The notes: generated by a model from the letters alone, not told the origin. A stretch of DNA of 64,000 nt from Acidimicrobiales bacterium (GCA_035534715.1 DATLRJ010000138.1:37266-101265), one strand, 5' to 3'; numbered from the stretch's first letter, positions 3,826 to 28,618 are shown. Made by a program: numbers and translations.

Positions 3826-4958
3826 GTGCGCGAGCCGGCGCGCGCGTGTCCGGCGCGCGCGAGGACGTCGGGGTCCAGGTAGCGGTCGATCTGCCGTTCG
3901 ATCGCCCGCGCCGCGCGGAAACCCGTCGTGCGACGCGCGGCGTAGTACCACTCGACCGTCCAGCGCACGGCGTCGGTGAGCTCTAGCCGCGGCGTCCAGC
4001 CGAGCCGGCGGCGCGCCTTCGTGCTGTCGAGGGTGAGAACCGCCCGCTCCGGCGCGCAGCTCCGGCCCGACAGGCGGAGCTCGACGAGGTCGTCGCCGCC
4101 GAGCTCGCTCCACGACGCCTCGACGAGTGCTACGAGCTGTCCGACCGTCGCGAAGCTGCGCGGGTCCGGGCCGAAGTTCCACGCCCCGGCGGCCGCGTGC
4201 GAGCCGTCGCCGAGATGGGCGCCGAGGACGAGGTAGCCCGCGACTGCGTCGAGCACGTGCTGCCAGGGGCGCACGGCCTCGGAGTGGCGGAGCTCGAGCG
4301 GCGCGCGGGCGTCGAGCGCGCGCACGCAGTCCGGGACGATCCGCCCCGGCGCGAAGTCGCCTCCGCCGACGATGTTGCCTGCCCGTGCGGTCGCGAGCGC
4401 CGGACCGCCGTCGAAGAACGACGCGCGGTACGCGCGGGCGACGAGCTCGGCGGCGCCCTTGCTCGCGCTGTACGGGTCCTCGCCGCCGAGGTGGTCGGCC
4501 TCGAGGTGCGCGCCGTCGCGCGTCGCGTAGCACTTGTCGCTCGTCACGACGACACAGCTCGCGACGGACCCGACGCGTCGGGCGGCGTCGAGGACGTGGA
4601 CCGTGCCCATGACGTTCGTGTCGAACGTCGCGACCGGGTCGACGTACGAGGGGAGCACGAAGGCCTGTGCTGCGAGGTGGAACACGATCTCGGGCCGAAC
4701 GCGGCGGAGCACGTCTGCGACCCGGGCCGCGTCGCGCACGTCGCCGATCTCCTCGCGCGCGTACTCGCGCAGCGCGGCCGGCGCGAGCGGACCGGGCTCG
4801 GCGGCGAGCGACAGCCCCGTGACGTCGGCTCCGCAGCGGGCGAGCCAGACGGAGAGCCACGTCCCCACGAATCCGTTGTGCCCGGTCACGAGGACACGCT
4901 TGTCGCGATAGGCGTCGGCGAAGAGGTCCTCGTAGGCACGTGCCGTCGGAGCGGTCAC
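3822..4958 (-). CDS. rfbG: CDP-glucose 4,6-dehydratase (RfbG/DdhB-like)
   Basis: The protein is 378 aa from GTG 4958 (GTGA overlap). It has the Rossmann motif VLVTGHNGFVGTWL and the catalytic motif YSASK. It sits between the cytidylyltransferase and E1, as in ddh/rfb clusters. Confidence 0.88.
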   Translation of the reverse strand: MTAPTARAYEDLFADAYRDKRVLVTGHNGFVGTWLSVWLARCGADVTGLSLAAEPGPLAPAALREYAREEIGDVRDAARVADVLRRVRPEIVFHLAAQAFVLPSYVDPVATFDTNVMGTVHVLDAARRVGSVASCVVVTSDKCYATRDGAHLEADHLGGEDPYSASKGAAELVARAYRASFFDGGPALATARAGNIVGGGDFAPGRIVPDCVRALDARAPLELRHSEAVRPWQHVLDAVAGYLVLGAHLGDGSHAAAGAWNFGPDPRSFATVGQLVALVEASWSELGGDDLVELRLSGRSCAPERAVLTLDSTKARRRLGWTPRLELTDAVRWTVEWYYAARRTTGFRAARAIERQIDRYLDPDVLARAGHARAGSRT

Positions 4959-5725
4959 TCCCACACCTTCCACGGCGCCCGACCCGATGCCCACAGCTCC
5001 TCGAGCGCGGTGCGATCGCGGAGCGTGTCCATGGCGTGCCAGAAGCCGTGGTGCTGGTACGCCGACAGCTGGCCTTCGGCCGTGAGGCGCTCGAGCGGCT
5101 CGCGCTCCCACGCCGTGAGCTCGTTGTCCACGTAGCTGAGGACGTCCGGCGAGAGGACGAAGAAGCCACCGTTGATCCATGCGTCGTCGCCGGAGGGCTT
5201 CTCCTTGAATCGCGCGACGGAGCTCCCAGCGAGCTCGATCGCCCCGAAGCGGCCGGGTGGCAGGATGGCGGTGACCGTCGCCAGACGACCTTGCGCGAAG
5301 TGGAAGTCGACGACCTTGCGCACGTCGACGTCCCCGACCGAGTCGCCGTATGTCATCGCGAAGTGGTCGTCGTCCAGGTAGCGCGCGACCTTCGCGAGGC
5401 GCCCACCCGTCTGGGTCGCATCGCCTGTGTCCACGAGCGTGACCGTCCATGGCTCGACGTCGTGGCGGTGGATCTCCGCGGAGCCGGTCTTCAGGTCGAA
5501 GCTGACGTCGGAGTTGTGGAGGACGTAGTTCGAGAAGTACTCCTTGATGGCGTACCCCCGGTAGCCGCAGCAGACGACGAAGTCGTTGAAACCTGCCGCA
5601 GAGTAGATCTTCATGATGTGCCAGAGGATCGGGCGGCCCCCGATCTCGACCATCGGCTTCGGCTTCAGGTGGGTCTCCTCCGACAGCCGAGTCCCTAGGC
5701 CGCCGGCGAGGATGACGACTTTCAT
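4955..5725 (-). CDS. rfbF: glucose-1-phosphate cytidylyltransferase (RfbF/DdhA-like)
   Basis: The protein is 256 aa from ATG 5725. Its N-terminus MKVVILAGGLGTRLSEETHLKPKPMVEIGGRPILWHIM is the family signature. It is the first gene of a three-gene minus-strand operon. Confidence 0.9.
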   Translation of the reverse strand: MKVVILAGGLGTRLSEETHLKPKPMVEIGGRPILWHIMKIYSAAGFNDFVVCCGYRGYAIKEYFSNYVLHNSDVSFDLKTGSAEIHRHDVEPWTVTLVDTGDATQTGGRLAKVARYLDDDHFAMTYGDSVGDVDVRKVVDFHFAQGRLATVTAILPPGRFGAIELAGSSVARFKEKPSGDDAWINGGFFVLSPDVLSYVDNELTAWEREPLERLTAEGQLSAYQHHGFWHAMDTLRDRTALEELWASGRAPWKVWE

Positions 5726-5904: not shown

Positions 5905-6969
5905 ATGGACCGCACGAGATCGATCATCGGCGCCGACCTCGAGCGCATCGCGCGCGGCCCGATTCCGTGGGACCGTCTTGAGGGCGCGACCGTGCTCGTC
6001 ACCGGCGCGACCGGTCTCGTCGGCGCGTACCTCGTCGAGGCGCTCGTCGCGCGTCGGGCACCCGCGCACCGGCGCACGAGGGTCGTCGTGCTCGCGCGCT
6101 CGCCGTCGCGTGCCTCGGCGCGCTTTGCACACCTGGACGCGGCGCTCGTCCGGGTCGTCGAGCACCGGCTCGACGCACCGCTCGAGCTCGACGGGCGTGC
6201 GGACTACGTCGTGCACGCAGGGGCGCCCGCGCAGCCGACGGCGTTCGCCGCCGACCCCGTCGGCACCTACGTCCCGAACGTGGTCGGAACCCACCATCTG
6301 CTCGAGTGGGCCGCCGGCCGGGGCGTGGAGCGGTTCGCGTTCGTGAGCAGCGGTGCGGCAAACGGTGCCGTCCCGCTCGAGCGCGGGCCGTACGACGAGG
6401 ACGTCTACGGGCCACTGGACCCGCTCGATCCCTACGCCTGCTACGCGGAGTCGAAGCGGATGGGTGAGGCGGCCTGCATGGCATGGCACCGCCAGACCGG
6501 CTTGGACATCGTCGTCGCGCGGCTGGGCCACACCTACGGCCCGGGCCTCGCACGCTCGGACACTCGTTCGTTCGCCGAGTTCGTGTACTGCGCGGTCGAC
6601 GGCAGGGATATCGTGCTGCGGACCGCGGGTGAGGCGAGGCGGCCGTTCTGCTACCTCTCCGATGCCGTCACCGGGCTGCTCACGGTACTCGTCGCGGGTG
6701 CCTCGGGCCGCGCGTACTTCGTCGTGAACGACGCTGCGGCGTGCTCGATCCTCGAGCTCGCACAGCTCGTCGCACGGCTGTCGCCGGCACCGGGAATCTC
6801 CGTGCGCACGCTCGACACCCCCGCAGGAGATGCGAAGGGAGTCCACCCCGCCGGGGACCTCGAGCTCGCGATGCCCGTGGCGGCGCGCCTGCGTGCGCTC
6901 GGATGGGATCCGCACGTCGGGCTCGCCGAGGGCTTCGCTCGCACCGTCGACGCACACCTCGGTGCCTGA
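5905..6969 (+). CDS. NAD-dependent epimerase/dehydratase/reductase (extended SDR)
   Basis: I place the start at ATG 5905, preceded by gggaagg; the ORF track begins at 5854. The protein has TVLVTGATGLVGAYL and YAESK (YxxxK) motifs. It is divergent from rfbF, so it is a candidate 4-ketoreductase or epimerase for the CDP-sugar. Confidence 0.8.
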   Translation: MDRTRSIIGADLERIARGPIPWDRLEGATVLVTGATGLVGAYLVEALVARRAPAHRRTRVVVLARSPSRASARFAHLDAALVRVVEHRLDAPLELDGRADYVVHAGAPAQPTAFAADPVGTYVPNVVGTHHLLEWAAGRGVERFAFVSSGAANGAVPLERGPYDEDVYGPLDPLDPYACYAESKRMGEAACMAWHRQTGLDIVVARLGHTYGPGLARSDTRSFAEFVYCAVDGRDIVLRTAGEARRPFCYLSDAVTGLLTVLVAGASGRAYFVVNDAAACSILELAQLVARLSPAPGISVRTLDTPAGDAKGVHPAGDLELAMPVAARLRALGWDPHVGLAEGFARTVDAHLGA

Positions 6970-6991
6970 CCCCGAACACTGCGTTTTCTCG

Positions 6992-7196: not shown

Positions 7197-9089
7197 ATGG
7201 GTCCCGATACGGCCGCCGTCGAGTCGGCCGCGCCCGTGCGGGTCGTCGACTGGATCGTCGGTGCCCTTCGGGCGCGCGGCATCGACCAGGTGTTCACCGT
7301 GACGGGCGGCGGCGCGATGCACCTCGACGACGCGGTGGGCGCGGACGAGGCGATCGACGTGGTCTGCATGCTCCACGAGCAGGCCGTCGCCATCGCGGCC
7401 GAGGCGTACACGAAGGCGTCCGGGAAGCTCGCGCTCGCGCTCGTGACCGCCGGCCCCGGAGGGACGAACGCGATCACCGGCGTCGCGGGCGCGTGGCTCG
7501 ACTCGACGCCGATGCTCGTGATCTCCGGCCAGGTGAAGCGGGCCGACCTCGTCGGCACGACCGGTGTGCGCCAGCGTGGTGTCCAGGAGCTCGACCTCGG
7601 CGCGATCGTCAATTCGATCACGAAGTACACCGCGCTCGTATGCGATCCGCTCCGGATCCGCTACCACCTCGAGCGGGCGCTCCACCTCGCGACGACTGGA
7701 CGCCCCGGACCCGTCTGGCTCGAGGTCCCGCTGGACGTCCAGGCAGCGCTCGTGAGCCCCGCCGAGCTCGTCGGCTTCGAACCGTCCGAGATCGGCGAGG
7801 CGACGACGCTCGACCGTCGCGAGGTGCGGCGCGCCGCGTCGCTCGTTCTCGACGCGCTCGCCGAGAGCGAGCGTCCGCTCCTGCTCGTGGGTGCCGGTGT
7901 GCGTCTCGCGCACGCGGAGCACGAGCTGCTCGGGCTCGTCGACGCGCTCGGGATCCCGGTGCTCACCACCTGGCCTGCGATGGGACTCGTGGGCGACGAG
8001 CACCCGTTGCACCTCGGCCGGCCGGGCCCGCTCGCGGGCCGCGGCTCGAACTTCGTGCTGCAGACCGCGGATCTCGTGCTGTGCCTCGGGGCGCGACTCG
8101 ATCTCGTGACGACCGGCTACGACCCGAAGGACTTCGCGCGCAACGCCCGGAAGTTCGTCGTCGACATCGACCCCGCGGAGCTCGCGAAGCTCGACGGGGC
8201 GATCGACACCGCGATCTGCGCGGACGCAGGCGAGTTCATCGCGGAGCTCGCCCGTGAGGCGCCGAGCCGCCCCGCGCGCGATCGCCGGCGATGGGCGGCA
8301 CGCGGTCGCGAGCTGGTCGAGGCGTACCCGATCGTGCGCGAAGAGCACCGGACCCGTGGCGGGCGCGTGTCGACGTACCACTTCGCCGACGCGCTCTCCG
8401 ATCTGCTCACCGACGACGACGTGCTCGCACCGTGCAGCTCGGGGCTCGCGATCGAGATATTCCTGCTCGCCCTGCGCCTGAGGACCGGTCAGCGGGCGAT
8501 CTTCACGACGGCGCTCGGCGCCATGGGCTACGGGCCACCGGCGGCGGTCGGCGCGTGCATCGCCTCGGGACGGCGACGCACGATCTGCGTGGACGGGGAT
8601 GGCGGGTTCCAGCTGAACGTCCAGGAGCTCGAGACGATCCGCCGCCTCGCGCTTCCCGTGAAATTGTTCGTGCTCGAGAACGGCGGGTACGCGTCGATCC
8701 GGGCGTCACAGCAGCGCTGGTTCGGGCGCCTGATCGGCGCGGACGCGTCGAGCGGCGTGACGCTCCCCCCCGTCGAGGGACTCGCGCGCGCGTACGGCCT
8801 CCCCTTCGCCCGCATCGACGGCCACGAGCTGCTCGCACCCCAGTTGCGCGCCGTGCTCGACGCTCCCGGTCCCGTCGTGTGCGAGGTTCCGTCGCCCCCG
8901 GACGAGCGGCGCGAGCCGGCGCAGGTGAGCGAGGCGCTCGCCGACGGCGGCATGCGATCGCGTCCGATCGAGGACCTCGCGCCGCTCCTGCCGAGAGACG
9001 AGCTCGCGGCGAATCTCGCGGCGTCCTACGCCGTGACGTCAGACGGACCGGCCGATGCCCGGCACGAGATCGACGAGGTGCGCAGATGA
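7197..9089 (+). CDS. thiamine-diphosphate-dependent enzyme, acetolactate-synthase/YerE-like (three-domain)
   Basis: The protein is 630 aa from ATG 7197, preceded by gaggagga. The N-domain reads FTVTGGGAMHLDDA...LHEQAVAIAAEAY...TAGPGGTNAITGVAGAWLDSTPMLVISGQ. The C-domain has a ThDP-Mg motif, VDGDGGFQLNVQELETIRRLALPVKLFVLENGGY. The 782-aa ORF-track entry is extended at its N-terminus. Confidence 0.85.
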   Translation: MGPDTAAVESAAPVRVVDWIVGALRARGIDQVFTVTGGGAMHLDDAVGADEAIDVVCMLHEQAVAIAAEAYTKASGKLALALVTAGPGGTNAITGVAGAWLDSTPMLVISGQVKRADLVGTTGVRQRGVQELDLGAIVNSITKYTALVCDPLRIRYHLERALHLATTGRPGPVWLEVPLDVQAALVSPAELVGFEPSEIGEATTLDRREVRRAASLVLDALAESERPLLLVGAGVRLAHAEHELLGLVDALGIPVLTTWPAMGLVGDEHPLHLGRPGPLAGRGSNFVLQTADLVLCLGARLDLVTTGYDPKDFARNARKFVVDIDPAELAKLDGAIDTAICADAGEFIAELAREAPSRPARDRRRWAARGRELVEAYPIVREEHRTRGGRVSTYHFADALSDLLTDDDVLAPCSSGLAIEIFLLALRLRTGQRAIFTTALGAMGYGPPAAVGACIASGRRRTICVDGDGGFQLNVQELETIRRLALPVKLFVLENGGYASIRASQQRWFGRLIGADASSGVTLPPVEGLARAYGLPFARIDGHELLAPQLRAVLDAPGPVVCEVPSPPDERREPAQVSEALADGGMRSRPIEDLAPLLPRDELAANLAASYAVTSDGPADARHEIDEVRR

Positions 9090-10321
9090 CCGTGATGACT
9101 CCCGCGAGCGTGACCCCGGCAAATGACGTGGCCTCGCTGGACGCGATGCTCGCCGAGCCCATCGAGCGAGCGCGACTTCGCGAGCGCGCGACGTTCGACG
9201 ACGCGGCCCGGGAGAGGGCCGGGCGGATCGTGCTGTTCGGAGCTGGCGGCCTCGGCCGCCGGACGCTCGCGGGGCTCCGTGCGGCGGGGGTCGAGCCGCT
9301 CGCGTTCGCGGACAACCGTGCGGGCTCGCACGGGTCCACTGTCGACGGCGTCGAGGTGCTCGCCCCGGAGGACGCGTCCGCGCGCTTCGGTGCGGACGCC
9401 GTGTTCGTGGTGACGATCTGGGGCGCGGGTAGCACGCACCGCTTCGCCCACTCACGTGACCAGCTCACCGCGCTCGGGTGCGACTGCGTCGTCCCCGCGG
9501 CGTGGCTCTTCTGGCGCCACGCTGAGCAGCTTCTCCCGTTCTACGCGCTCGACCTGCCCTCGCGCCTTCTCGAGCAGGGGACCGAGGTGCGCAGGTGCTA
9601 CGAGTCGCTCGCGGACGAGCGGTCGCGGGCGGAGTACGTCGCGCAGGTCCGCTGGCGCCTCACCGGCGACCCCGGGGGTCTCGCCCACCCGGTCGGGGAG
9701 GCGCAGTACCTCGTGACCGACGTCGCGGTCCCGGTAGATGGCGACGTGGTGCTCGACTGCGGTGCGTACGACGGCGACACGCTCCGTTCGTGGATGGCGG
9801 TGCGCGGCCCGTCGTTCCGGGAGTACGTGGCGATGGAGCCGGACCCGCAGAGCCGTGCCCGCCTCGCTGCGTGCGTCGCGGCGATGGACGACGGCTTGCG
9901 GCAGCGCGTACGGGTCCTCCCGTACTCGGTGGGCGGCCGGACGGGGATCGCGACGTTCAGCGCGTCGGGGTCGCTCTCGTCATCGCTCGGCGAGGGCGGT
10001 GGGATCGAGGTCGAGTGCGTTCGGCTCGACGACCTGCGCGACGAGCTCGGGGGCGCGTCGCCGACCTTCGTGAAGGTGGACATCGAAGGCGCCGAGCTCG
10101 ACGCGCTCGCGGGTGCGGCGTCGCTCGTTCGCGAGTGCCGCCCGATGATCGCGATCGCCGCTTACCACCGCCAGGACCACCTGTGGCGCGTTCCGCTCGC
10201 GGTGCGCGCGCTGTGGCCCGGGTACGCGCTCTTCCTCCGGCCGCACAACGAGGAAGGCTGGGACCTCATCCTCTACGCGGTTCCGCCGGATCGCGTGCCG
10301 GGGCGCCGAGCCGCGACGTGA
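9086..10321 (+). CDS. FkbM-family methyltransferase with N-terminal Rossmann-like domain
   Basis: The protein is 411 aa from ATG 9086 (ATGA overlap). It has VLDCGAYDGDTLRSW and FVKVDIEGAELDAL motifs. The N-terminal module reads RIVLFGAGGLGRRTLAGLRAAGVEPLAFADN. Confidence 0.8.
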   Translation: MTVMTPASVTPANDVASLDAMLAEPIERARLRERATFDDAARERAGRIVLFGAGGLGRRTLAGLRAAGVEPLAFADNRAGSHGSTVDGVEVLAPEDASARFGADAVFVVTIWGAGSTHRFAHSRDQLTALGCDCVVPAAWLFWRHAEQLLPFYALDLPSRLLEQGTEVRRCYESLADERSRAEYVAQVRWRLTGDPGGLAHPVGEAQYLVTDVAVPVDGDVVLDCGAYDGDTLRSWMAVRGPSFREYVAMEPDPQSRARLAACVAAMDDGLRQRVRVLPYSVGGRTGIATFSASGSLSSSLGEGGGIEVECVRLDDLRDELGGASPTFVKVDIEGAELDALAGAASLVRECRPMIAIAAYHRQDHLWRVPLAVRALWPGYALFLRPHNEEGWDLILYAVPPDRVPGRRAAT

Positions 10322-11361
10322 CCGTGCCCACCTTGCTCGCTCACGAGACGGTCGCCGACTGGCTCGACTGGCGCGCCCGAGCCGCTGCGCGGGCGCACTC
10401 CCGCCGCTGGAGCCCGTCTCCGAGCGGTGCGTACTCGCTGTTCGGCGCGGGCGGGGCGCCGCTCGGGGAGGGTGCAGTCGTGGTCGCGATCGACGACGTG
10501 TCGCCGACGGTGCGCGCCTCGCTCCTCGCCCCTGCCGACCTTCTCGTCGCACGCGGCGTCCCGGTCGCGCTCCTCGCACCGGCTCACCTCGCGGATGCGC
10601 TCGCGGTGCGCGGCTTCCGCGCGGTCGCGGACCTCCGGGACCCGTCCACGTCGCCGGTGGCGCCTGCGGCCGTGCTCGCACTGTCGCACGCGGTGGGCGC
10701 CGGAGCCGCGGGTTGGGTGCTCGCGGGCCGCGCGCACGCGCCGTTCCTCGTCGTCCAACACGGTGTCGTCACCCCGTACGCCCCCCCCCTTCCTGCGGGT
10801 GCCGTCCTTCTCGCATGGTCGGCGCGAGATGCAGCGTTCTGGCTCGCGGGACGCGTGGAGCTCGAGGTGGAGGTCGTGGGGAGCGAGCTGCTGTGGCAGG
10901 CGGCCCAGCTCCGTCGCGAGCGAGCCGGCGCCGGAGAGGGGCTCTGCTTTCTCGGCCAGCTCCACGGAGCGGAGCTGGGGCGCGACGTGACGGTTCGCAC
11001 GGTCGCTTCGATCGCGCGCACACGTCCGGTCCTGTACCGCCCGCATCCCGCGGAGCGCGACCCGCTGAGCCTCGTGCGGCACGAGCGGTGGCGCCGTGGG
11101 GGAGTCACGGTCGCCTCGGCGAACGTGCCGCTCACCGACGAGGAGGGACCCATCGTCGGGATCTTCTCGACGGGGATCCTCGAGGCGGCCGCATGCGGCC
11201 TGGACGCGTACGCGACCTGCGTGCGCCCGCCCGGGTGGGTGGAGGAACTATGGCTCCGGTACTCGATGGCGCCGCTCGGGGCCCGCGAGGCAACCGTGGT
11301 GACCGTTCCTCCACGGCGACCCGCCGAGGCGATCGCGGACCTCGTGGAGGAGCGGAGGTGA
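10318..11361 (+). CDS. uncharacterised GT-B-like protein (candidate NDP-sugar hydrolase or ulosonate transferase)
   Basis: The protein is 347 aa from GTG 10318, with GTGA overlaps at both ends. The C-terminal half looks GT-B-like (FLGQLHGAE..., LYRPHPAE, LTDEEGPIVGIFSTGILEAAACG). I recognised no confident family match. Confidence 0.55.
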   Translation: MTVPTLLAHETVADWLDWRARAAARAHSRRWSPSPSGAYSLFGAGGAPLGEGAVVVAIDDVSPTVRASLLAPADLLVARGVPVALLAPAHLADALAVRGFRAVADLRDPSTSPVAPAAVLALSHAVGAGAAGWVLAGRAHAPFLVVQHGVVTPYAPPLPAGAVLLAWSARDAAFWLAGRVELEVEVVGSELLWQAAQLRRERAGAGEGLCFLGQLHGAELGRDVTVRTVASIARTRPVLYRPHPAERDPLSLVRHERWRRGGVTVASANVPLTDEEGPIVGIFSTGILEAAACGLDAYATCVRPPGWVEELWLRYSMAPLGAREATVVTVPPRRPAEAIADLVEERR

Positions 11362-12062
11362 TCGTCGGGCGCGGCACACCGTTCCTCGTCGTGGTCCCGG
11401 CACGCGGGGGTTCGAAGCGGGTGCCGGGAAAGAACCGGCGCCTTCTCGCGGGACGGCCGCTCGTCGAGTGGTCGATCGAGCACGTGGCGCGGTGCACGAC
11501 GCCGATGCGCCTCGTGGTGAGCACCGACAGCAGCGAGATCGCCGCCCTCGCTATCGCTGCAGGGGCCGAGGTTCCCTTCATCCGCCCGGCGGAGCTCGCG
11601 ACCGACGAGGCGCCGACCGAGCCGGTGCTCGTCCACGCGCTCGACGCGACGCCCGGCGCGTCCGAGGCGGAGCACGTCGTGCTGCTACCGCCGACGTCCC
11701 CGATCCGCCGCGACGGGTCGATCGACGCGGCGGTCGCCCGTTACCGAGCGCTCGGTGCGGACAGCCTCGTGAGCGTCACGGAGGCGAGCCCGTTGCAGTG
11801 GAGCGGTCCGCTCGACTCGCCGCGGCCGCTCTACGACACGAACGCGCGCCCGCGTCTGCAGAGCGTCGCACCGCAGATGCGCAGGTACCGGGAGAACGGG
11901 AGCATCGTCATCACTTCCGCCGCCGGGCTCCGCGCATCGGGCAACCGCATCTGCGGCAAGACCGTGATGTTCGTCATGAGCCCCGAGGAAGGCATCGACC
12001 TCGACTGCGAGTACGACTTCTGGATGGCCGAGCAGTGGTTACGGAGCGCACATGCTTATTGA
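11358..12062 (+). CDS. acylneuraminate/ulosonate cytidylyltransferase family protein (NeuA/PseF/LegF/KdsB-type)
   Basis: The protein is 234 aa from GTG 11358. It carries VVVPARGGSKRVPGKNRRLLAGRPLVEWSI, VVSTDS and LLPPTSPIRR motifs of the CTP_transf_3 family. Confidence 0.85.
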   Translation: MIVGRGTPFLVVVPARGGSKRVPGKNRRLLAGRPLVEWSIEHVARCTTPMRLVVSTDSSEIAALAIAAGAEVPFIRPAELATDEAPTEPVLVHALDATPGASEAEHVVLLPPTSPIRRDGSIDAAVARYRALGADSLVSVTEASPLQWSGPLDSPRPLYDTNARPRLQSVAPQMRRYRENGSIVITSAAGLRASGNRICGKTVMFVMSPEEGIDLDCEYDFWMAEQWLRSAHAY

Positions 12063-14298
12063 ACGAGACATCGCACGGTACTGCGTCGCGAGCGACGAGA
12101 CGGTCGAGGAAGCACTCCGGCAGATCGCGCGCAACGGGCGGCGCACGGTGTTCTGCGTCGAGCAGTCCGGAGCGCTCGCGGGCGTGATCACCGACGGCGA
12201 CTTCCGCCGCTGGCTCCTCGCGAACCCCGGGGGACCGCTGTCGACGTGCGCGCTGTCGGTCGCGAACCGGTCGTACGTCTCGGCCCGGTCTGGAACTTCG
12301 ACCGACGAGATCGAGGCGCTGTTCAGCGAGGCGATCCAGCTCGTGCCGGTCGTCGACGACAGCGGGCGGCTTGTCGCGGTCGCGCGTCCCCGCACACGCA
12401 CGCTGTGGATCTCCGGGCACGAGGTCGCGGCCGGCTCGCCGACGTTCGTCGTTGCGGAGATCGGCATCAACCACAACGGAAGCCTGGACGTCGCGAAGCG
12501 ACTCGTCGACGTCGCCGCGCGAGCGGGCGTGAACTGTGCGAAGTTCCAGATGCGCGACCTCGCCTCGCTCTACCGGAACTCCGGCGCGGTCGGCGATTAC
12601 CGCGAGGACCTCGGCCCGCAGTACACGCTCGACTTGCTCGAGCGGTTCTCGCTCGGCGTCGACGAGATGGTGGCGCTCTTCGACTACTGCCGGAGCGTCG
12701 GCCTCGTCCCGCTGTGCACGCCGTGGGACCTCGAGAGCGCGCGGGTGCTCGACGACTACGGGATCCCGGCGTACAAGGTCGCGTCCGCGGACCTCACGAA
12801 CCACGCGCTCGTGTCGTTCCTCGCGCAGAGCGGACGGCCGGTGATCCTCTCGACGGGAATGTCGACCGAGCAGGAGATCGTCGAGACCGTCTCGCTCCTC
12901 CGGTCGGCCGGGGCAGCCTACGCGCTGCTCCACTGCAACTCGACCTACCCGGCGCCGTTCAAGGACGTGAACCTGCGCTACATGGACCGTCTCGCCCAGA
13001 TCGGCGACTGCGCCGTGGGCTACTCGGGCCACGAACGCGGCTACCACGTGGCGGTCGCCGCAGTCGCGCGCGGCGCGAGCATCGTCGAGAAGCACGTGAC
13101 GCTCGACCGGACGTGGGAGGGCAACGACCACAAGGTGAGCCTCGAGCCGGACGAGCTCGTCGCGATGGTGCGTGAGATCCGCGACGTCGAGGAATCGCTC
13201 GGGTCCAACGTGACTCGCTCGGTCACGCCGGGGGAGATGATGAACCGGGTGAACCTCGCGAAGAGTCTCGTCGCGCGCGTCGCGATCCGCGCCGGCACCG
13301 AGATCACCGACGACCTCGTCGAGGTGCGGAGCCCCGGGCGCGGACTCCAGCCGAACCGCCGGTCGGAGCTCGTCGGCCGCACCGTGGCGCGCGACCTGGA
13401 ACCAGGAGACTTCTTCTTCGAGAGCGACCTCGCGCGTGGCCAGGTCGCGCCACGCGACTACCGCTTCCGCCGTCCGTGGGGACTTCCCGTCCGCTACCAC
13501 GACTACCGGGACCTCGCGGCGCGCTCGAACCCCGACTTCCTCGAGTTCCACATGAGCTATCGCGACCTCGACCTGCGCGTGGCCGACATGGTGGGCGAGC
13601 CGGTCGCGGCTGGGCTCGTCGTCCACAGCCCGGACCTGTTCCCGGGCGACCACATCTTGAACCTCGCGAGCATGGACGACGCGTACTGGAAGCGGTCGAT
13701 CTGCGAGCTGCAGCGCGTGGTGGACCGCACTCGCGAGCTCGCGCCGAGGTTCCGCACGGCCGGCCGGACGCTCGTGGTCGCGAGCCTTGGCGGCTTCTCG
13801 TCCGACCGCCCACTCCCGAGCGCCGAGCTTCCCGAGCGCTACGCACGCGTCGCGTCTGGCCTCGAGGAGCTCGACGACGAGGGCGTCGAGATCGTCGCGC
13901 AGACGCTGCCTCCGTTCCCGTGGTACCTGGGCGGCCAACGCTTCTGCAACCTGTTCGTCGACCCGGCGGACACGGTGGAGTTCGCGCGGGGCTACGGCCG
14001 GCGCATCTGCCTCGACGTCGCGCATACGAAGCTCGCGTGCAATCAGCGCCAGCTCGCCTTCTCGGACGCGGTCGAGCTGCTAGCGCCGTACACGGCGCAC
14101 CTTCACGTGGTGGACGCCTCCGGCGTCGACGGGGAGGGCCTGCAGGTCGGCACGGGCGAGGTCGACTTCCGGGTCCTCGCGGAGCAGCTCGACCGGCTCG
14201 CCCCGGCCGCGGGGTTCATCCCGGAGATCTGGCAGGGTCACCAGAACCTCGGCGAGGGCTTCTGGGTCGCCCTCGACCGCCTCGAGCGGTACTTGTGA
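12052..14298 (+). CDS. CBS pair + NeuB-type (PEP-condensing) ulosonate synthase + SAF + xylose-isomerase-like TIM-barrel fusion
   Basis: The protein is 748 aa. It begins with a CBS-like region. The NeuB motifs are TFVVAEIGINHNGSLDVAKRLVDVAARAGVNCAKFQ and SGHERGY...EKHVTLD. A SAF segment follows (VAIRAGTEITDDLVEVRSPGRGL). The C-terminal ~270 aa carry AP_endonuc_2/TIM-barrel motifs (ICLDVAHTKLA, AHLHVVDASGVDGEGLQVGTGEVDF). Confidence 0.85.
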   Translation: MLIERDIARYCVASDETVEEALRQIARNGRRTVFCVEQSGALAGVITDGDFRRWLLANPGGPLSTCALSVANRSYVSARSGTSTDEIEALFSEAIQLVPVVDDSGRLVAVARPRTRTLWISGHEVAAGSPTFVVAEIGINHNGSLDVAKRLVDVAARAGVNCAKFQMRDLASLYRNSGAVGDYREDLGPQYTLDLLERFSLGVDEMVALFDYCRSVGLVPLCTPWDLESARVLDDYGIPAYKVASADLTNHALVSFLAQSGRPVILSTGMSTEQEIVETVSLLRSAGAAYALLHCNSTYPAPFKDVNLRYMDRLAQIGDCAVGYSGHERGYHVAVAAVARGASIVEKHVTLDRTWEGNDHKVSLEPDELVAMVREIRDVEESLGSNVTRSVTPGEMMNRVNLAKSLVARVAIRAGTEITDDLVEVRSPGRGLQPNRRSELVGRTVARDLEPGDFFFESDLARGQVAPRDYRFRRPWGLPVRYHDYRDLAARSNPDFLEFHMSYRDLDLRVADMVGEPVAAGLVVHSPDLFPGDHILNLASMDDAYWKRSICELQRVVDRTRELAPRFRTAGRTLVVASLGGFSSDRPLPSAELPERYARVASGLEELDDEGVEIVAQTLPPFPWYLGGQRFCNLFVDPADTVEFARGYGRRICLDVAHTKLACNQRQLAFSDAVELLAPYTAHLHVVDASGVDGEGLQVGTGEVDFRVLAEQLDRLAPAAGFIPEIWQGHQNLGEGFWVALDRLERYL

Positions 14299-15146
14299 GC
14301 ACGCCCACGCAAGCGACGCGACCCGGAGGCGAGTTCGACCTGGGCGGAAAGGTCGTGCTCCTCACGGGCGCGCGCGGTCAGATCGGCTCGGAGGCCGCGG
14401 ACGCGTTCGCCGCGCACGGAGCCTTCGTGGTGGTCACCGACATCGGGGACGCGGCACGCCTCGAGGACCAGGCGCGCGACCTGCGGGCCCGGCACGCGGG
14501 CGCGCGCGCGATCGGTGTCGAGCTCGACGTCACGTCGGCCGATTCGGTCGCCGCGGCGTTCGCCGTGGTCGCCGAGGAGTTCGGTCGGGTCGACGTGCTC
14601 GTGAACAACGCCGCGATCGACGCGAAGTTCGACGCCTCCGTCGGCGCGATCGAGCCTGCCCGCTTCGAGTCCTATCCGCTCGAGCTGTGGGAGCGCTCCG
14701 TCGCGGTGAACCTCACGGGACTCATGCGCGTCACGCAGGCGGCGCTCCAGGTCATGTTGCCGCAAGGCAGTGGAAACATTGTGAACGTCGGGTCCTCGTA
14801 CGGCGTCGTCTCGCCGAACCAGGCGCTCTACGAGACCGACCGCGTACACGAGCGCCGCTACAAGCCCGTCGACTACGTGGGCACGAAGTCCGCGATCGCG
14901 AACCTCACTCGCTACTGGGCGACCCTCTACGCGCGCGAGGGCATTCGCTGCAACTGCCTGGTCCCGCACGGGATCGACAACGCGCACGACGAGCGGTTCC
15001 GCCAGAACTTCGCGTCGCTCTCGCCGATCGGGCGCATGTGCGCGGTCGAGGAGCTGCGAGGGCCGTTCGTCTTCCTCGCGTCCGACGCGTCGAGCTACAT
15101 GACCGGGTCCGTGCTCGTGGTCGACGGGGGATGGACCGCGTGGTAG
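14295..15146 (+). CDS. classical short-chain dehydrogenase/reductase
   Basis: The protein is 283 aa from GTG 14295 (GTGA overlap). It has VVLLTGARGQIGS, NNAA and YVGTK (YxxxK) motifs. Confidence 0.85.
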   Translation: MSTPTQATRPGGEFDLGGKVVLLTGARGQIGSEAADAFAAHGAFVVVTDIGDAARLEDQARDLRARHAGARAIGVELDVTSADSVAAAFAVVAEEFGRVDVLVNNAAIDAKFDASVGAIEPARFESYPLELWERSVAVNLTGLMRVTQAALQVMLPQGSGNIVNVGSSYGVVSPNQALYETDRVHERRYKPVDYVGTKSAIANLTRYWATLYAREGIRCNCLVPHGIDNAHDERFRQNFASLSPIGRMCAVEELRGPFVFLASDASSYMTGSVLVVDGGWTAW

Positions 15147-15174: not shown

Positions 15175-16203
15175 TCAGGCGATCACCTCGACGCGGCCCG
15201 TCTCGAGCGAGGTGCGAAGCGCGAGCGCGATGCGCAGCGTGTCGACGCCGTGCGCAAGACTCACGGGCACGTCGGCCTCGCCGCGCGCGGCCGCGAGGAA
15301 CGCGCGCATCTCGTCGAGGAACATGTCGTTGCGTGCGAAACCCGCGTAGCTCGTCGAGCGCGCGGCGCCTCCGTCCTCCCCGTACCAGGTGAGCGAGGGG
15401 CGGAGCAGGTCGACCTCGGCGGTCCCTCGCTCGCCCCGAACGACACAGGTCCGCCGTGCGGGCCGGCTCCGGAAGTCGAGGTGGAGGTGCGCGGGGAGAG
15501 GCCGTCCACCGGTCTCGAACTCGAGCAGCGCGCTCGCGGTGTCCTCGACGTCGACGTCGAGATCGCTCACGTGCCCGCCGACGGCGAAGACGCGCCGCGG
15601 CATCCCGAGCAGCCAGTGGAGGTAGTCGAGCTCGTGGATCTGGGTGAGCACGACCCCGCCGCCGAGGTCGCGGCGAGCCGCGTAGGACCGGCGGTAGTCC
15701 TCGTAGGGGTGGTACGCGGGCAGGTAGTCCGCCTCGGTCGCGCACACGGTGACGACGCGCCCGAGCGCGTCGCGACCGATCAGCTCGCGGAGCTCGAGGA
15801 GCGCAGGGTGGAAGCGGTGCTGGCACCCCACCGCGACGGTCGCGCCGCGTCGCGCGGCGAGCTCCACGAGGGCGTCGAGGCCGTCGAGCGAGTCGGACAC
15901 GGGCTTCTCGACGAGTACGGCAGCGCCCGCACGGATCGCTTCGTCGACCACGGGGAGGTGGAGGCTCGTCGGATTGCTCACGACGACGACGTCGGGGCGG
16001 GTCGCGAGCGCGTCGCCGAGGTCGTCGAACGCGCCGCCATCGCAGTCGGCGAGCGCGCTCGCGTGGAGCTCGGGGACGACCTGCGCGCCGGTACGGCCCG
16101 TGAGCGCGCAGAGCTCGAGGTCGTTGCCGAGAAGGGTGCGGAGGTTCGCGGCGTGGCGCCGGCCGATCGAGCCGAGCCCGACGACGAGGGCCCGCGTCGT
16201 CAT
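15175..16203 (-). CDS. Gfo/Idh/MocA-family NAD(P)-dependent sugar oxidoreductase
   Basis: The protein is 342 aa. It has the Rossmann motif LVVGLGSIGRRHAANL and an EKP motif (VLVEKPV). Confidence 0.85.
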   Translation of the reverse strand: MTTRALVVGLGSIGRRHAANLRTLLGNDLELCALTGRTGAQVVPELHASALADCDGGAFDDLGDALATRPDVVVVSNPTSLHLPVVDEAIRAGAAVLVEKPVSDSLDGLDALVELAARRGATVAVGCQHRFHPALLELRELIGRDALGRVVTVCATEADYLPAYHPYEDYRRSYAARRDLGGGVVLTQIHELDYLHWLLGMPRRVFAVGGHVSDLDVDVEDTASALLEFETGGRPLPAHLHLDFRSRPARRTCVVRGERGTAEVDLLRPSLTWYGEDGGAARSTSYAGFARNDMFLDEMRAFLAAARGEADVPVSLAHGVDTLRIALALRTSLETGRVEVIA

Positions 16204-17444
16204 CCGGCCGTCGGGGGACCGACCGCTCCGTCGACCCGGACGATCGGGTTCGCGAGGCCGAGCGACTCGGCCGCCGCGGCGATCGAGTCGGCACGGATGA
16301 ACGAGGCGACGACGAGTGGCACGTCCCCTTCCGGGAGGTCTGCGGGCGCGACGACCTGCCGTCCTGCGAACGAGAAGCCGCGGCGGGACGGGCTGCCGTC
16401 GACGTACGCGACCGCGTGGCGCGACGCGAGCGGCTCGAGGGCGAGCAGCTTGAACGCGGCCTCACCGATGCCCCACACGGCGTAGTCGCGCCGATCGCCG
16501 AGCGAGTGCTCGAGCGCGGATTCGACTTGGGCGAGGTCGCGCCTCGAGCGCGCGGCGAAGTCGACGAGCACCCGTTCGAGCGCGTCGTCGCGCGCCTCGG
16601 CGTGCCCGGCCGCCTTCGTGAAGCGCCAGGCCACGGCCGCGCAGCGGGTCCCGACGGCCGGGGTGAGCGGTGCGACGTACGAGGTCTCCGCGACGGTTTC
16701 GAGGCCGAAGCGCGCGGCGAGGCGCCGCAGTCCGGGGAACGAGAGGTGGTTCACGTGCTCGGTGCTGAAGTCCTCGAACGGCGCGACGTACGGGTCGAGG
16801 TAGCGGCTCGCGTCGGGGACCTCGACGTAGACGGCTCCTCCCGGAGCGAGCCGGCCGCAGAGCGCGCGTATCGCCGCGGCAGGGTCCCACAGGTGCTCGA
16901 GCACGCCGGTCGCGCAGATGCAGTCGAATTCGCCGAGGTCGTCCGGGAGGTTCGAGAACGTTCCCAGGCGGGCGCGTACCCCGGGGCGCAGGTTTGCGAT
17001 CCGCACCGAGTCCGGAGACGGGTCGATGCCCTGGAGGTTCCGGTAGCCGCGGCGCGCGAGCGCCCCGAGGATGAGTCCCGTGGAGCAGCCGACGTCGAGC
17101 ACGCGGGCGTCGCGGGAGCCCACGACCGACGCGATCCGCGAGGCGGAGGACTCGGTCTTGGCCGCGAGCCAGGCAGGCTCGTCCGCCGAAGCCGCCGGCG
17201 TCGTGCCGCCGGATCCCGGCGAGTACACCGCGACCTCGTTTGCGTACTTGGCGAGCGTCTCGTAGTACCGCTCGTAGTACTCGGGTGCTACGACGGCGTC
17301 CGCGAATCCCGTGCCGCACTCGTAGCAGGACACGACGGAGTAGCCGTCGCCGAGCGGGTGGCCGTCCGGTGCTCGCATGCGCACGTCGGCGACCGCGGCA
17401 CCGCCCCGGTCGGACCCGCAGACCGGGCACGCGCGACTGTCCAT
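16200..17444 (-). CDS. class I SAM-dependent methyltransferase with N-terminal Zn-ribbon and C-terminal Rossmann-like domain
   Basis: The protein is 414 aa. Its cysteine pairs are CPVCGS...CYECG. The SAM motif is VLDVGCSTGLILGALA. The C-terminal module reads DYAVWGIGEAAFKLL...AYVDGSPSRRG. The architecture recalls sugar C-/O-methyltransferases. It forms an ATGA overlap with the downstream oxidoreductase. Confidence 0.8.
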   Translation of the reverse strand: MDSRACPVCGSDRGGAAVADVRMRAPDGHPLGDGYSVVSCYECGTGFADAVVAPEYYERYYETLAKYANEVAVYSPGSGGTTPAASADEPAWLAAKTESSASRIASVVGSRDARVLDVGCSTGLILGALARRGYRNLQGIDPSPDSVRIANLRPGVRARLGTFSNLPDDLGEFDCICATGVLEHLWDPAAAIRALCGRLAPGGAVYVEVPDASRYLDPYVAPFEDFSTEHVNHLSFPGLRRLAARFGLETVAETSYVAPLTPAVGTRCAAVAWRFTKAAGHAEARDDALERVLVDFAARSRRDLAQVESALEHSLGDRRDYAVWGIGEAAFKLLALEPLASRHAVAYVDGSPSRRGFSFAGRQVVAPADLPEGDVPLVVASFIRADSIAAAAESLGLANPIVRVDGAVGPPTAG

Positions 17445-17692: not shown

Positions 17693-19105
17693 GTGAACGG
17701 CCCGCTTCCGGGCGGCGGTGGCCTCGTGCTCGTAGATGGCCGCCCGGCTTCGTGGGAGCCCGCCGAGGTCGCGCGCGCGGCGGCGTCGCTCGATGCGGCG
17801 GGCCGCTCGCTCGACGAGCTCGCGTCGGCGTGCCCGCGCGAACGAGCCGAGGTGCTCGCTGCCGCGGCGCTCGTCGTCGATGCGGGACTCGCCGACCGGC
17901 TGTTGGAAGCCACCTGGCGCGGGGTCGACGCCCGCGTCGCGCTCGCGGGAGCGTCGCGCGTCGCGGTGCGGTTCCCGGTCGATCGGGCCCTCGTGTGGTC
18001 TGCGCGACTTCGCGACGGCGGGCTCGCGGCGTTCTGTCCGCTCGTCGGGGGCGCCCGCGACCTCGAGCAGCGGCCGAGCGAGCGCGCGCGCCGCGCCGCG
18101 GTGGCGTGGCGGGCGTTCGCGGACGCGGACGCCCGCGCACTCGCGGTCGCGGCTGCATCGGAGATCGCGAGCCGCAGTGTGTCCGAGTCGTTGAACGAGG
18201 AGCTCGCGGTGCTCGCCCCGGACGTGCGTGCCGAGCTCGACGCGATCGTCGGCGAGGTCGCAGGGGGGCCCGGGCGCCCGAGCCGGGCGTCGGACGGCAC
18301 GAGCACGCGCGTGAGCGTGGTCGTGACGCTCTCGGACGCCGACCCGGCTGGGAGCGCAGAGCGGTGGGAGGAGCTCGTCGGGTCCGGGCGTGACGAGCTC
18401 GTCGCGGCCGTCCTCGCGCCGCATGGTTCCTCCGGCGCTGCGGTGGAGTCGACGGCGGGTGCGAGCGGGCTCGACCGGGAGCCCAGCGGCGCGCTCGCGG
18501 TCGCCGCGAAGCACCGGGCCGCGTGCGACGCGGTGGGTGACGTGCTCGTGTTCGTGGACGGCTCGCTCCACCCCGCCCCGGCGTGGCTGGACGGGATCCT
18601 CCGGACCTTCGAGGAGCATCCCGACGTGGCGGTCGTGGCGCCGTTCGTGCGATGCGAACCTCCCGCGGGTTCGCCTGAGAGCGTCGCCTGCGGTGTGGAG
18701 GTGCTGCTCGATGCGAGGTACGCGCCGACGCTCGCCCTGCGCCCGTGTCCGGTCCCGCCCGACGCGCGGGGGCGCGCACTGCCGGTCGGGGAGCTGCAGT
18801 CGGGGGCCGCCGAGGCGGTCGCGGTCAGGCGGTCGGCGTTCGCCCGAGTCGGTGGCTTCGAGACCTCGCTGCCCGAGCCGTTCGCGACGACCGACCTGTG
18901 CCTTCGGATCGGAGCGCTCGGGCTGCGTGTCGCATCCGCGCCGCAGAGCTCGCTGCGACGACTCGCGACGCGCCACGGGGTCGTGCCACGCCCGGTGACC
19001 GGGGGTGCGGAGCAATTCGACCGTCGCTGGCTCGGTGTCGTGGGCCCGGACCTCGTCGTTGGGTTCGTGCCCGGTGGACGCGTCCCGTCGCGCGAGGAGG
19101 CGTGA
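17693..19105 (+). CDS. GT2-like glycosyltransferase with novel N-terminal module
   Basis: The protein is 470 aa, and its GTG start is uncertain. The C-terminal half carries GT2-like motifs (VLVFVDGSLHPAPAWLDGIL, AVRRSAFARVGGFETSL). The N-terminal ~190 aa include a module shared with the 1478-aa protein. Confidence 0.6.
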   Translation: MNGPLPGGGGLVLVDGRPASWEPAEVARAAASLDAAGRSLDELASACPRERAEVLAAAALVVDAGLADRLLEATWRGVDARVALAGASRVAVRFPVDRALVWSARLRDGGLAAFCPLVGGARDLEQRPSERARRAAVAWRAFADADARALAVAAASEIASRSVSESLNEELAVLAPDVRAELDAIVGEVAGGPGRPSRASDGTSTRVSVVVTLSDADPAGSAERWEELVGSGRDELVAAVLAPHGSSGAAVESTAGASGLDREPSGALAVAAKHRAACDAVGDVLVFVDGSLHPAPAWLDGILRTFEEHPDVAVVAPFVRCEPPAGSPESVACGVEVLLDARYAPTLALRPCPVPPDARGRALPVGELQSGAAEAVAVRRSAFARVGGFETSLPEPFATTDLCLRIGALGLRVASAPQSSLRRLATRHGVVPRPVTGGAEQFDRRWLGVVGPDLVVGFVPGGRVPSREEA

Positions 19106-28595: not shown

Positions 28596-28618
28596 ACTCA
28601 CGAGAATTGGAGAAACGG

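What the first reader, a model, noticed from the sequence alone, without database searches (positions are those of the whole stretch)
7197..15146. A six-gene translationally coupled operon fuses a CDP-sugar branch pathway to a NeuB/CMP-transferase module with no amino-sugar enzymes, suggesting a non-aminated or branched ulosonic acid
Seen in sequence: six genes are chained by 4-nt or 11-nt overlaps, so they are almost certainly one transcript and one pathway. They are the ThDP enzyme (7197), an FkbM methyltransferase (9086), a GT-B-like unknown (10318), a NeuA-type cytidylyltransferase (11358), a NeuB-type synthase fusion (12052) and an SDR (14295).

Nowhere in the island did I find the usual entry enzymes of nonulosonate pathways. 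There is no UDP/GDP-GlcNAc 4,6-dehydratase, no PLP aminotransferase with the catalytic Lys, no N-acetyltransferase and no 2-epimerase. The only DegT-fold protein is the His-variant dehydrase.

Established knowledge: Neu5Ac, pseudaminic and legionaminic acids all start from UDP- or GDP-GlcNAc and are aminated. Kdn starts from mannose or mannose-6-phosphate.

Inference: the PEP-condensing enzyme may be fed by a hexose released from the CDP-linked, deoxygenated and possibly C-branched or methylated sugar. The GT-B-like protein could act as a PseG-like nucleotidase. The product would be a nitrogen-free deoxy-ulosonic acid, activated with CMP. I know of no described pathway of this type.
Basis: inference. 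Interest (0 to 1): 0.78.

Follow-up and report, generated by a model that had tools for sequence, protein, structure and literature searches.

The report
Flagellar sugar island: NeuB feeds YerE-like enzyme
A flagellin-glycosylation island in an Acidimicrobiaceae bacterium carries a conserved gene set that most likely builds a long-branched CDP-sugar by joining a NeuB-made keto-acid onto a dideoxy-sugar, a new variant of a pathway known from cell-wall sugars.

Summary
Six + strand genes (7197-15146) overlap by 4 or 11 nt: a ThDP enzyme, an FkbM methyltransferase, a GT-B-fold unknown, a CMP-type cytidylyltransferase, a CBS-NeuB-SAF-TIM fusion and an SDR. They lie between flhA and fliC. I found no amino-sugar enzyme in the 64 kb window.

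The NeuB fusion plus cytidylyltransferase, with or without the GT-B protein, stands alone in about 60 of 83 genome loci that have no CDP-sugar genes. So it does not need a CDP-derived hexose.

The ThDP enzyme is YerE-like: its best PDB match is JanthE at 1e-118, against 1e-70 for acetolactate synthase. Among 17 metagenomic loci with a close homologue, 16 carry a NeuB-domain gene, 13 carry rfbH and only 3 carry the cytidylyltransferase.

The best explanation is convergent. NeuB makes a 2-keto-3-deoxy acid. The ThDP enzyme decarboxylates it and adds it to C-4 of CDP-4-keto-3,6-dideoxyglucose. This follows the published scheme for erwiniose and caryophyllose, with NeuB in place of the aldolase.

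The chemistry is inferred, not shown. Novelty: a new variant of a known kind.

The parts
232..2304 (-). flhA, the left boundary of the island
   Evidence: FHIPEP 763 bits; TIGR01398 FlhA E 1e-222, 740.7 bits, just below its 772.1 cut-off
2431..3825 (-). RfbH/E1, CDP-6-deoxy-D-xylo-4-hexulose 3-dehydrase
   Evidence: NF011936 RfbH equivalog, 682 bits against a cut-off of 423. It co-occurs with the ThDP subfamily in 13 of 17 loci.
3822..4958 (-). CDP-glucose 4,6-dehydratase
   Evidence: TIGR02622, 374 bits against a cut-off of 278
4955..5725 (-). Glucose-1-phosphate cytidylyltransferase
   Evidence: TIGR02623, 432 bits against a cut-off of 300
5905..6969 (+). Extended SDR (epimerase/reductase fold); candidate YerF-like reductase of the branch ketone
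   Evidence: Pfam Epimerase 1e-40. A homologue lies next to ThDP in 13 of 17 loci. The role is inferred.
7197..9089 (+). YerE-like ThDP-dependent carboligase
   Evidence: Three TPP domains. Best PDB hit is 8RPH JanthE at E 1e-118, aligned over residues 14-605, against 8e-70 for acetolactate synthase. It scores far below all ALS equivalog cut-offs.
9086..10321 (+). FkbM-family methyltransferase whose N-terminal part weakly resembles the N-domain of NeuD
   Evidence: PF05050 3e-19; TIGR01444. It occurs in 11 of 17 ThDP loci.
10318..11361 (+). Orphan GT-B-fold protein; a candidate CMP-ulosonate transferase, or alternatively an NDP-sugar hydrolase
   Evidence: No family hit. AF2 pLDDT 92. Foldseek hits: PseG 1e-5, HepE, UDP-GlcNAc 2-epimerase, Kdo transferases and TagF. 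Invariant RPHP and STG motifs. It forms a triad with the cytidylyltransferase and the NeuB fusion in 26 of 83 genome loci, mostly Actinomycetota.
11358..12062 (+). CMP-ulosonate synthetase-type cytidylyltransferase
   Evidence: PF02348 1e-16; PseF 112 bits, below the cut-off. It is paired with the NeuB fusion in most of the 83 genome loci.
12052..14298 (+). CBS pair + NeuB (PEP-condensing synthase) + SAF + ketose-3-epimerase-like TIM barrel
   Evidence: Pfam. NeuB equivalog scores 319.5, below the 399.65 cut-off. 13 NmNeuB active-site positions are conserved. The TIM model has pLDDT 90 and best matches ketose 3-epimerases and Endo IV.
14295..15146 (+). Classical SDR oxidoreductase
   Evidence: adh_short_C2 2.5e-49. 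It occurs with ThDP in 8 of 17 loci.
15175..16203 (-). GFO/IDH/MocA oxidoreductase
   Evidence: Pfam. It occurs with ThDP in 7 of 17 loci, next to the TIM gene in the split clusters.
16200..17444 (-). Class I SAM methyltransferase
   Evidence: Methyltransf_23 1e-22; in 5 of 17 ThDP loci
17852..19105 (+). Unknown protein with a weak GT2-like signal
   Evidence: MftF-like hit at 5e-8 only; no PDB hit
19102..21162 (+). Unknown protein whose C-terminal half recurs beside rfb/ThDP clusters
   Evidence: No family or PDB hit. Homologues in L086 (50%), L108 (30%) and L006 (33%).
21233..23854 (-). Two-domain glycosyltransferase (GT4 + GT2)
23959..28362 (-). GT2-TPR-GT4 giant glycosyltransferase next to fliC; candidate flagellin glycosyltransferase
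   Evidence: Pfam. The role is inferred from its position and TPR repeats.
28607..29452 (+). Flagellin, the right boundary of the island and presumed acceptor
   Evidence: Flagellin_N and Flagellin_C domains

Best explanation
The island builds a CDP-activated 3,6-dideoxyhexose that carries a long, polyhydroxylated and methylated C-4 branch, for attachment to flagellin. Two routes converge.

1. RfbF, RfbG and RfbH make CDP-4-keto-3,6-dideoxy-D-glucose. These family assignments are shown. An E3 reductase was not found.
2. The CBS-NeuB-SAF-TIM fusion condenses PEP with an aldose from ordinary metabolism to give a 2-keto-3-deoxy ulosonic acid. The catalytic residues are conserved. The substrate is unknown.
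3. The YerE-like ThDP enzyme decarboxylates that acid and adds the acyl anion to the C-4 ketone of the CDP-sugar. This step is inferred.
4. The extended SDR, the classical SDR, the GFO oxidoreductase and the TIM domain reduce or epimerise the branch. The FkbM and class I methyltransferases methylate it. These steps are inferred.
5. In this clade only, the cytidylyltransferase and the GT-B protein probably also CMP-activate the same acid and transfer it as a second residue. These two genes travel with this NeuB fusion in many other genomes.
For: - The ThDP enzyme is YerE-like. JanthE matches at 1e-118, full length, against 8e-70 for acetolactate synthase (JanthE identity from PMC12188165 and PMC12247030).
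- Of 17 metagenomic loci with ThDP at 45% identity or more and at least 6 kb of flank, 16 have a NeuB domain, usually within 1.5 kb. 13 have rfbH, 13 the extended SDR, 11 FkbM, and only 3 the cytidylyltransferase or the GT-B protein.
- Several distinct NeuB forms sit beside this ThDP subfamily: CBS-NeuB-SAF-TIM, NeuB-SAF-TIM-CBS, NeuB-SAF-TIM, and NeuB-only.
- NeuB-only clusters carry a HAD phosphatase and a separate TIM-barrel gene next to ThDP. The fusion seen here is therefore split elsewhere.
- More distant ThDP loci (33% identity) have rfbFGH but no NeuB or aldolase, as expected for pyruvate-using yersiniose clusters.
- L001 and L006 nest inside the window's NeuB clade. They keep ThDP next to NeuB but have neither the cytidylyltransferase nor the GT-B protein.
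- Published precedent: ErwE, MMAR_2332 and MyGE use C4-C8 gamma-hydroxy 2-keto acids as donors. CDP-4-keto-3,6-dideoxyglucose is the proposed acceptor (PMC9306805).
Against: - No biochemistry exists for any protein of this cluster. The donor specificity of the ThDP enzyme is unknown and could be pyruvate.
- All known NeuB-family products are CMP-activated sugars, not ThDP donors.
- The published scheme uses pyruvate aldolases, not NeuB.
- This window does carry a cytidylyltransferase and a GT-B protein inside the operon. A separate CMP-ulosonate residue could therefore explain the NeuB gene on its own.
- L001 has no rfbFGH within 10 kb.
- Some of the 17 loci are near-duplicates (L088/L089, L095/L106, L102/L103), so the independent count is nearer 13.
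- No E3 reductase for RfbH was found in the window.
Confidence: 0.5

Rival explanations
1. Two independent sugars are encoded side by side. RfbFGH, ThDP with pyruvate as donor, and a reductase make a yersiniose-like CDP-sugar. The NeuB fusion, the cytidylyltransferase and the GT-B protein make and transfer an unrelated CMP-ulosonic acid such as Kdn. The genes are interleaved only because both sugars go onto flagellin.
For: The triad or pair of NeuB fusion and cytidylyltransferase is a self-sufficient module in about 60 of 83 genome loci. One of those, L047, lies beside flhA and two flagellin genes. In the window, the triad sits as a block between FkbM and the SDR.
Against: This does not explain why 16 of 17 close ThDP loci carry a NeuB gene while 14 of 17 lack any cytidylyltransferase. 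It does not explain why L001 and L006 keep NeuB next to ThDP without it. It also does not explain why yersiniose-type loci with distant ThDP lack NeuB.
Confidence: 0.25
2. The CDP-linked deoxy, branched hexose is released by the GT-B protein acting as a PseG-like hydrolase. NeuB condenses it with PEP. The resulting nitrogen-free deoxy-nonulosonic acid is CMP-activated.
For: The best structural matches of the GT-B protein are PseG and a UDP-GlcNAc 2-epimerase. All the needed enzyme classes are present in one operon.
Against: The triad occurs in 26 of 83 genome loci, only 2 of which (both close relatives of the window) also carry ThDP or CDP-sugar genes. Most rfb-NeuB-ThDP clusters have neither a hydrolase candidate nor a cytidylyltransferase. 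The Foldseek TM-scores to PseG are low (0.40-0.47), and Kdo transferases and TagF also match.
Confidence: 0.08
3. The ThDP enzyme acts only as an alpha-keto-acid decarboxylase on the NeuB product. It would give a 2-deoxy aldose that is two carbons longer than the starting sugar, without ligation to the CDP-sugar.
For: NeuB products are alpha-keto acids, which are the substrates of this enzyme superfamily. NeuB and ThDP genes are adjacent.
Against: The enzyme groups with ketone-accepting carboligases (JanthE) rather than with decarboxylases. rfbH co-occurs in 13 of 17 loci.
Confidence: 0.07

Closest known systems
Erwiniose, caryophyllose and gastriose clusters (ErwE/ErwI, MMAR_2332/MMAR_2331, MyGE/MygI; Steitz et al. 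2022, PMC9306805)
   Same: Both have genes for CDP-4-keto-3,6-dideoxyglucose, a YerE-like ThDP carboligase, an enzyme that makes a 2-keto-3-deoxy acid, NAD(P)H reductases and SAM methyltransferases.
   Different: Here a PEP-dependent NeuB-family synthase, fused or adjacent to a TIM barrel, supplies the keto-acid rather than a pyruvate aldolase. The cluster lies in a flagellar locus rather than an LPS/LOS locus. It also carries a cytidylyltransferase and a GT-B protein.
Yersiniose A pathway (YerE/YerF, Yersinia pseudotuberculosis)
   Same: CDP-glucose is converted through a 4,6-dehydratase and the E1 dehydrase to a 4-keto sugar. A ThDP enzyme then branches it at C-4 and a reductase follows.
   Different: YerE uses pyruvate and needs no keto-acid synthase. 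Loci of that type (L125, L127) have ThDP enzymes only about 33% identical to this one and carry no NeuB.
NeuC-NeuB-NeuA and Kdn, pseudaminic or legionaminic acid pathways
   Same: Both have a NeuB-type PEP condensation, a CMP-type cytidylyltransferase and a GT-B-fold partner.
   Different: This cluster has no dehydratase, aminotransferase, acetyltransferase or 2-epimerase. The synthase falls below the NeuB and PseI equivalog cut-offs and carries extra CBS and TIM domains. The residue aligned with Arg314 of NmNeuB is Ser.
Flagellin glycosylation islands (Campylobacter, Aeromonas, Caulobacter FlmG type)
   Same: Sugar-synthesis genes and a TPR-bearing glycosyltransferase are inserted between flagellar genes, next to fliC.
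   Different: The sugar chemistry is of the CDP-dideoxyhexose/ThDP type. No Maf homologue was detected.

Membership tests
YerE-like ThDP carboligases (decarboxylase superfamily) | Three ThDP-enzyme domains and a GDG-type ThDP motif | tested here: met
   PF02776, PF00205 and PF02775. A GDG motif is visible in the alignment to JanthE.
YerE-like ThDP carboligases (decarboxylase superfamily) | Closer to a characterised YerE-like enzyme than to acetolactate synthase | tested here: met
   JanthE 8RPH at 1e-118 against the best ALS at 8e-70. All ALS equivalog cut-offs are missed by a wide margin.
YerE-like ThDP carboligases (decarboxylase superfamily) | Clustered with genes for CDP-4-keto-3,6-dideoxyglucose | tested here: met
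   rfbF, rfbG and rfbH lie 1.5-4.8 kb upstream in the window. rfbH is present in 13 of 17 homologous loci.
YerE-like ThDP carboligases (decarboxylase superfamily) | Accepts a ketone (the CDP-keto-sugar) as acceptor, with a defined 2-keto-acid donor | not testable with these tools
   This needs an enzyme assay.
NeuB-family ulosonic acid synthases | NeuB TIM-barrel domain followed by a SAF/antifreeze-like domain | tested here: met
   PF03102 2e-81 and PF08666 6e-10
NeuB-family ulosonic acid synthases | Metal-binding and PEP-binding residues of NmNeuB. The roles of these residues are recalled from memory. | tested here: met
   E25, K53, Q55, T110, K129, S132, S154, Y186, S213, H215, E234, H236 and D247 are conserved in the alignment to 1XUU. 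The changes are E134D, N184S, F112W and R314S.
N-acetylneuraminate synthase (TIGR03569) or pseudaminic acid synthase (TIGR03586) equivalogs | Score above the curated equivalog cut-off | tested here: not met
   319.5 against 399.65, and 230.9 against 340.25
Canonical nonulosonate (Neu, Pse, Leg) gene clusters | Entry enzymes are present: NDP-GlcNAc 4,6-dehydratase, aminotransferase, N-acetyltransferase, and a hydrolysing 2-epimerase or PseG | tested here: not met
   None was found among the 48 window genes scanned (all called genes of 170 aa or more). The rest of the genome is unseen.
PseG-type NDP-sugar hydrolase | GT-B fold with close structural and sequence similarity to PseG | tested here: inconclusive
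   PseG is the top Foldseek hit, but the match is weak: E 1e-5, TM 0.40-0.47 and 12% identity. Transferases score similarly. A profile search of the PDB found nothing.
CMP-ulosonate cytidylyltransferases (PseF, NeuA, KdsB) | CTP_transf_3 domain and an equivalog-level score | tested here: inconclusive
   The domain is present at 1e-16. PseF scores 112 against 205.7, and the KdsB models score far below their cut-offs.

The most novel reading that the evidence does not exclude
NeuB-family synthases are an unrecognised supplier of long polyhydroxylated 2-keto-3-deoxy acids to YerE-like carboligases. If the aldose is a hexose, the product is a CDP-linked sugar of roughly 13 to 15 carbons with a C7-C8 branch. 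Here it would be placed on flagellin, while the same acid is also CMP-activated as a second donor, so one ulosonic acid has two uses. The several NeuB forms found beside this ThDP subfamily would then define a widespread family of unknown higher-carbon sugars.
Probability: 0.4. Interest if true: 0.75.

Novelty: new variant of a known kind. Interest (0 to 1): 0.62.

Why it matters
- It would extend the published scheme for acyl-branched bacterial sugars to a second, PEP-dependent way of making the donor acid. It would also predict larger branched sugars than any yet described.
- It would give a first functional context for part of a very large, uncharacterised family of CBS-NeuB-SAF-TIM fusions. 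That family has more than 7,000 homologues and relatives in 317 species genomes.
- It would show a flagellin glycan chemistry unlike the usual pseudaminic or legionaminic acids.
- YerE-like enzymes with long functionalised donors are also sought as biocatalysts for making chiral tertiary alcohols.

Tried and rejected
- I first read the NeuB fusion plus cytidylyltransferase as a simple Kdn-type module and the ThDP gene as part of a separate yersiniose branch. The 16 of 17 association between NeuB and ThDP weakened that view.
- A link to Streptomyces Kdn-teichulosonic acid genes (SCO4879-4881, recalled from memory) could not be verified. The literature searches gave only structural descriptions.
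- A literature search for NeuB with a xylose-isomerase-like or CBS fusion found nothing. A search for YerE-like enzymes with sialic acid synthase also found nothing.
- Krug et al. 2024, an in-silico survey of more than 200 YerE-like clusters, is not held. The supplement of PMC9306805 is not held either. I therefore cannot exclude that NeuB-containing clusters were already listed there.
- A profile search of the PDB with the GT-B family gave only noise.
- The two unknown proteins at 17852-21162 have no PDB relatives.
- Organism identity comes only from L004, a 98% identical locus in an Acidimicrobiaceae MAG.

Full report
**Setting.** The window has about 72% G+C. Genes were therefore called from third-position GC and then scanned against Pfam and NCBIfam. 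It is a flagellar locus. The flagellar genes found are flhA, fliC, fliD, fliS, flhB, fliR, fliP, fliO, fliM, flgE, fliI, fliH, fliG and fliF. A 26 kb sugar island is inserted between flhA (232-2304) and fliC (28607-29452). The closest public sequence is an Acidimicrobiaceae MAG, L004, with 98% identity for the NeuB protein.

**Observation.** The six genes are at the stated coordinates and their domain assignments hold. The junctions are ATGA, GTGA, GTGA, an 11-nt overlap and GTGA. The start codons are inferred. However, gene lengths match those of homologues, and the same order and spacing recur in five related loci at 62-98% protein identity. The unknown protein at 10318-11361 has no family hit but folds confidently (pLDDT 92) as a GT-B protein. 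Divergently upstream lie rfbF, rfbG and rfbH, all above their equivalog cut-offs. Downstream on the other strand lie a GFO oxidoreductase and a methyltransferase. No amino-sugar entry enzyme is present among the 48 window genes scanned (all called genes of 170 aa or more).

**The NeuB fusion is not special to this island.** The 748-aa CBS-NeuB-SAF-TIM architecture has more than 7,000 homologues. It is 52-60% identical across Cyanobacteria, Anaerolineae, Acidobacteriota, Fibrobacteria and many Actinomycetota. Relatives were found in 317 species genomes. I compared all island proteins with 83 loci by tblastn. The cytidylyltransferase accompanies the fusion in most of them. The GT-B protein joins them as a triad in 26 loci, mostly Actinomycetota. 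ThDP or rfbFGH homologues at ortholog-level identity (above 40%) appear in only four loci, all close relatives of the window. Pfam-annotated contexts show the pair among glycosyltransferases, sulfotransferases or Kdo-transferase-like genes, with no constant precursor enzymes. This module must therefore draw its aldose from common metabolism.

**The ThDP enzyme is YerE-like and is tied to NeuB.** Its best solved relative is 8RPH. That entry is JanthE, a YerE-like ketone-accepting carboligase (PMC12188165, PMC12247030). The match is E 1e-118 over the full length, against 8e-70 for acetolactate synthase. A metagenome scan returned 65 loci.
- 17 loci have ThDP at 45% identity or more and at least 6 kb of flank. 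Of these, 16 carry a NeuB domain, usually within 1.5 kb.
- In the same set, 13 carry rfbH, 13 the extended SDR, 11 FkbM, 8 the SDR and 7 GFO. Only 3 carry the cytidylyltransferase and GT-B protein, and all three belong to the window's clade.
- A few of these loci are near-duplicates, so the independent count is nearer 13.
- Among 12 loci with more distant ThDP homologues, 5 have rfbH and 1 has NeuB.
- Two of the distant loci, L125 and L127, are plain rfbF-rfbG-SDR-ThDP-rfbH clusters with no keto-acid enzyme. That is what a pyruvate-using yersiniose cluster should look like.

**Several NeuB forms, one partnership.** Four forms of NeuB gene lie beside this ThDP subfamily:
- The window's CBS-NeuB-SAF-TIM form, which is a monophyletic subclade within the widespread family.
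- NeuB-SAF-TIM-CBS, 770-793 aa.
- NeuB-SAF-TIM, 655 aa.
- NeuB-only proteins of about 290 aa. Their clusters read rfbH, NeuB, HAD phosphatase, ThDP, stand-alone TIM barrel, GFO, SDR, FkbM.

The TIM barrel is thus fused here and separate elsewhere, which ties it to the same pathway. Apart from the HAD phosphatase of the split clusters, the conserved set is rfbF/G/H, extended SDR, NeuB, TIM, ThDP, GFO, SDR, FkbM and a class I methyltransferase. That is exactly the gene content of this island minus the cytidylyltransferase and the GT-B protein. L001 and L006 nest inside the window's NeuB subclade. They retain ThDP next to NeuB but have neither extra gene within 10 kb, even at relaxed thresholds.

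**Mechanism.** NeuB products are 2-keto-3-deoxy acids, and YerE-type enzymes decarboxylate 2-keto acids and add the acyl anion to a ketone. Steitz et al. proposed, and partly demonstrated, that ErwE, MMAR_2332 and MyGE use C4-C8 gamma-hydroxy 2-keto acids made by pyruvate aldolases. In their scheme the acceptor is CDP-4-keto-3,6-dideoxyglucose, and the products are erwiniose, caryophyllose and gastriose (PMC9306805). The simplest reading here is the same scheme with a PEP-dependent NeuB synthase in place of the aldolase.
- The NeuB domain keeps 13 active-site positions of NmNeuB. It differs at positions I recall as contacting the sugar: F112W, N184S and R314S.
- The TIM domain (pLDDT 90) resembles ketose 3-epimerases and Endo IV. 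Its step is unknown.
- The reductases and methyltransferases would tailor the branch.
- In this clade, the cytidylyltransferase and the GT-B protein probably also activate and transfer the acid itself. The GT-B protein has invariant RPHP and STG motifs. From memory, these resemble the HP and S-S/T motifs of CMP-dependent GT-B transferases.

**What is shown and what is inferred.**
- Shown: gene content, folds, family placement and co-occurrence statistics.
- Inferred: every chemical step, the identity of the aldose, the use of the acid as ThDP donor, and glycosylation of flagellin.
- Main rival: two independent sugars encoded side by side. This remains reasonable for this window, because a full CMP-activation module is present.

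**Novelty.** The general logic is published, so this is a new variant of a known kind. I found no paper in the searchable library that links YerE-like clusters to NeuB-type synthases. One relevant survey could not be read.

Noticed in passing
window 12052-14298; loci L002-L083: The CBS-NeuB-SAF-TIM fusion paired with a CTP_transf_3 gene is a widespread two-gene module. It has relatives in 317 species genomes and is very common in cyanobacteria, often beside sulfotransferases. I could find no characterised member. Its product sugar is unknown.
   Followed up: partly
window 10318-11361; proteins P0121-P0240: The GT-B-fold protein belongs to a sequence-orphan family of about 343 aa, found mostly in Actinomycetota. 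Several source records name it 'RNA-binding protein', which looks like a mis-annotation. Its invariant motifs include QHG, RPHP and FSTG.
   Followed up: partly
window 13441-14295 (TIM domain); L100 4288-6600: In the widespread fusion the motif 'IPQTLPPFPW' has an invariant Gln. The ThDP-linked NeuB-SAF-TIM-CBS form has 'ENLPPYPW' with Glu at that position. This may be one of the metal-binding positions of the fold, but I did not verify that.
   Followed up: no
window 19102-21162; L006 1046-1870, L086 3036-3920, L108 16410-17273: The C-terminal half of this 686-aa protein has no family assignment. It recurs at 30-50% identity beside rfb/ThDP clusters in three unrelated loci. It may be the transferase or polymerase for the branched sugar.
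   Followed up: no
window 32738-34150 (-): A 470-aa protein with small-domain and lysine-methyltransferase-like hits lies about 290 nt downstream of fliS, on the opposite strand. It may be a flagellin lysine methyltransferase.
   Followed up: no
L047 2607-12954: A contig labelled as an Akkermansia muciniphila MAG carries flhA, two flagellin genes, the NeuB fusion and a cytidylyltransferase. Akkermansia is not known to be flagellated, so the contig may be mis-binned. It does show the two-gene module in a second flagellar locus.
   Followed up: no
window 42668-43720 (-): An NlpC/P60 + SLT two-domain peptidoglycan hydrolase sits inside the flagellar operon. It probably acts as the flagellum-specific wall-lytic enzyme.
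   Followed up: no
window 6970-7196: A 227-nt untranslated gap separates the extended SDR from the ThDP gene. A strong GAGGAGGA ribosome-binding site lies before 7197. The six-gene chain may have its own promoter here.
   Followed up: no
window 2431-5725: No AscD/RfbI-type E3 reductase partner for RfbH was found in the window or in the related clusters I examined. RfbH may rely on a general cellular reductase.
   Followed up: no
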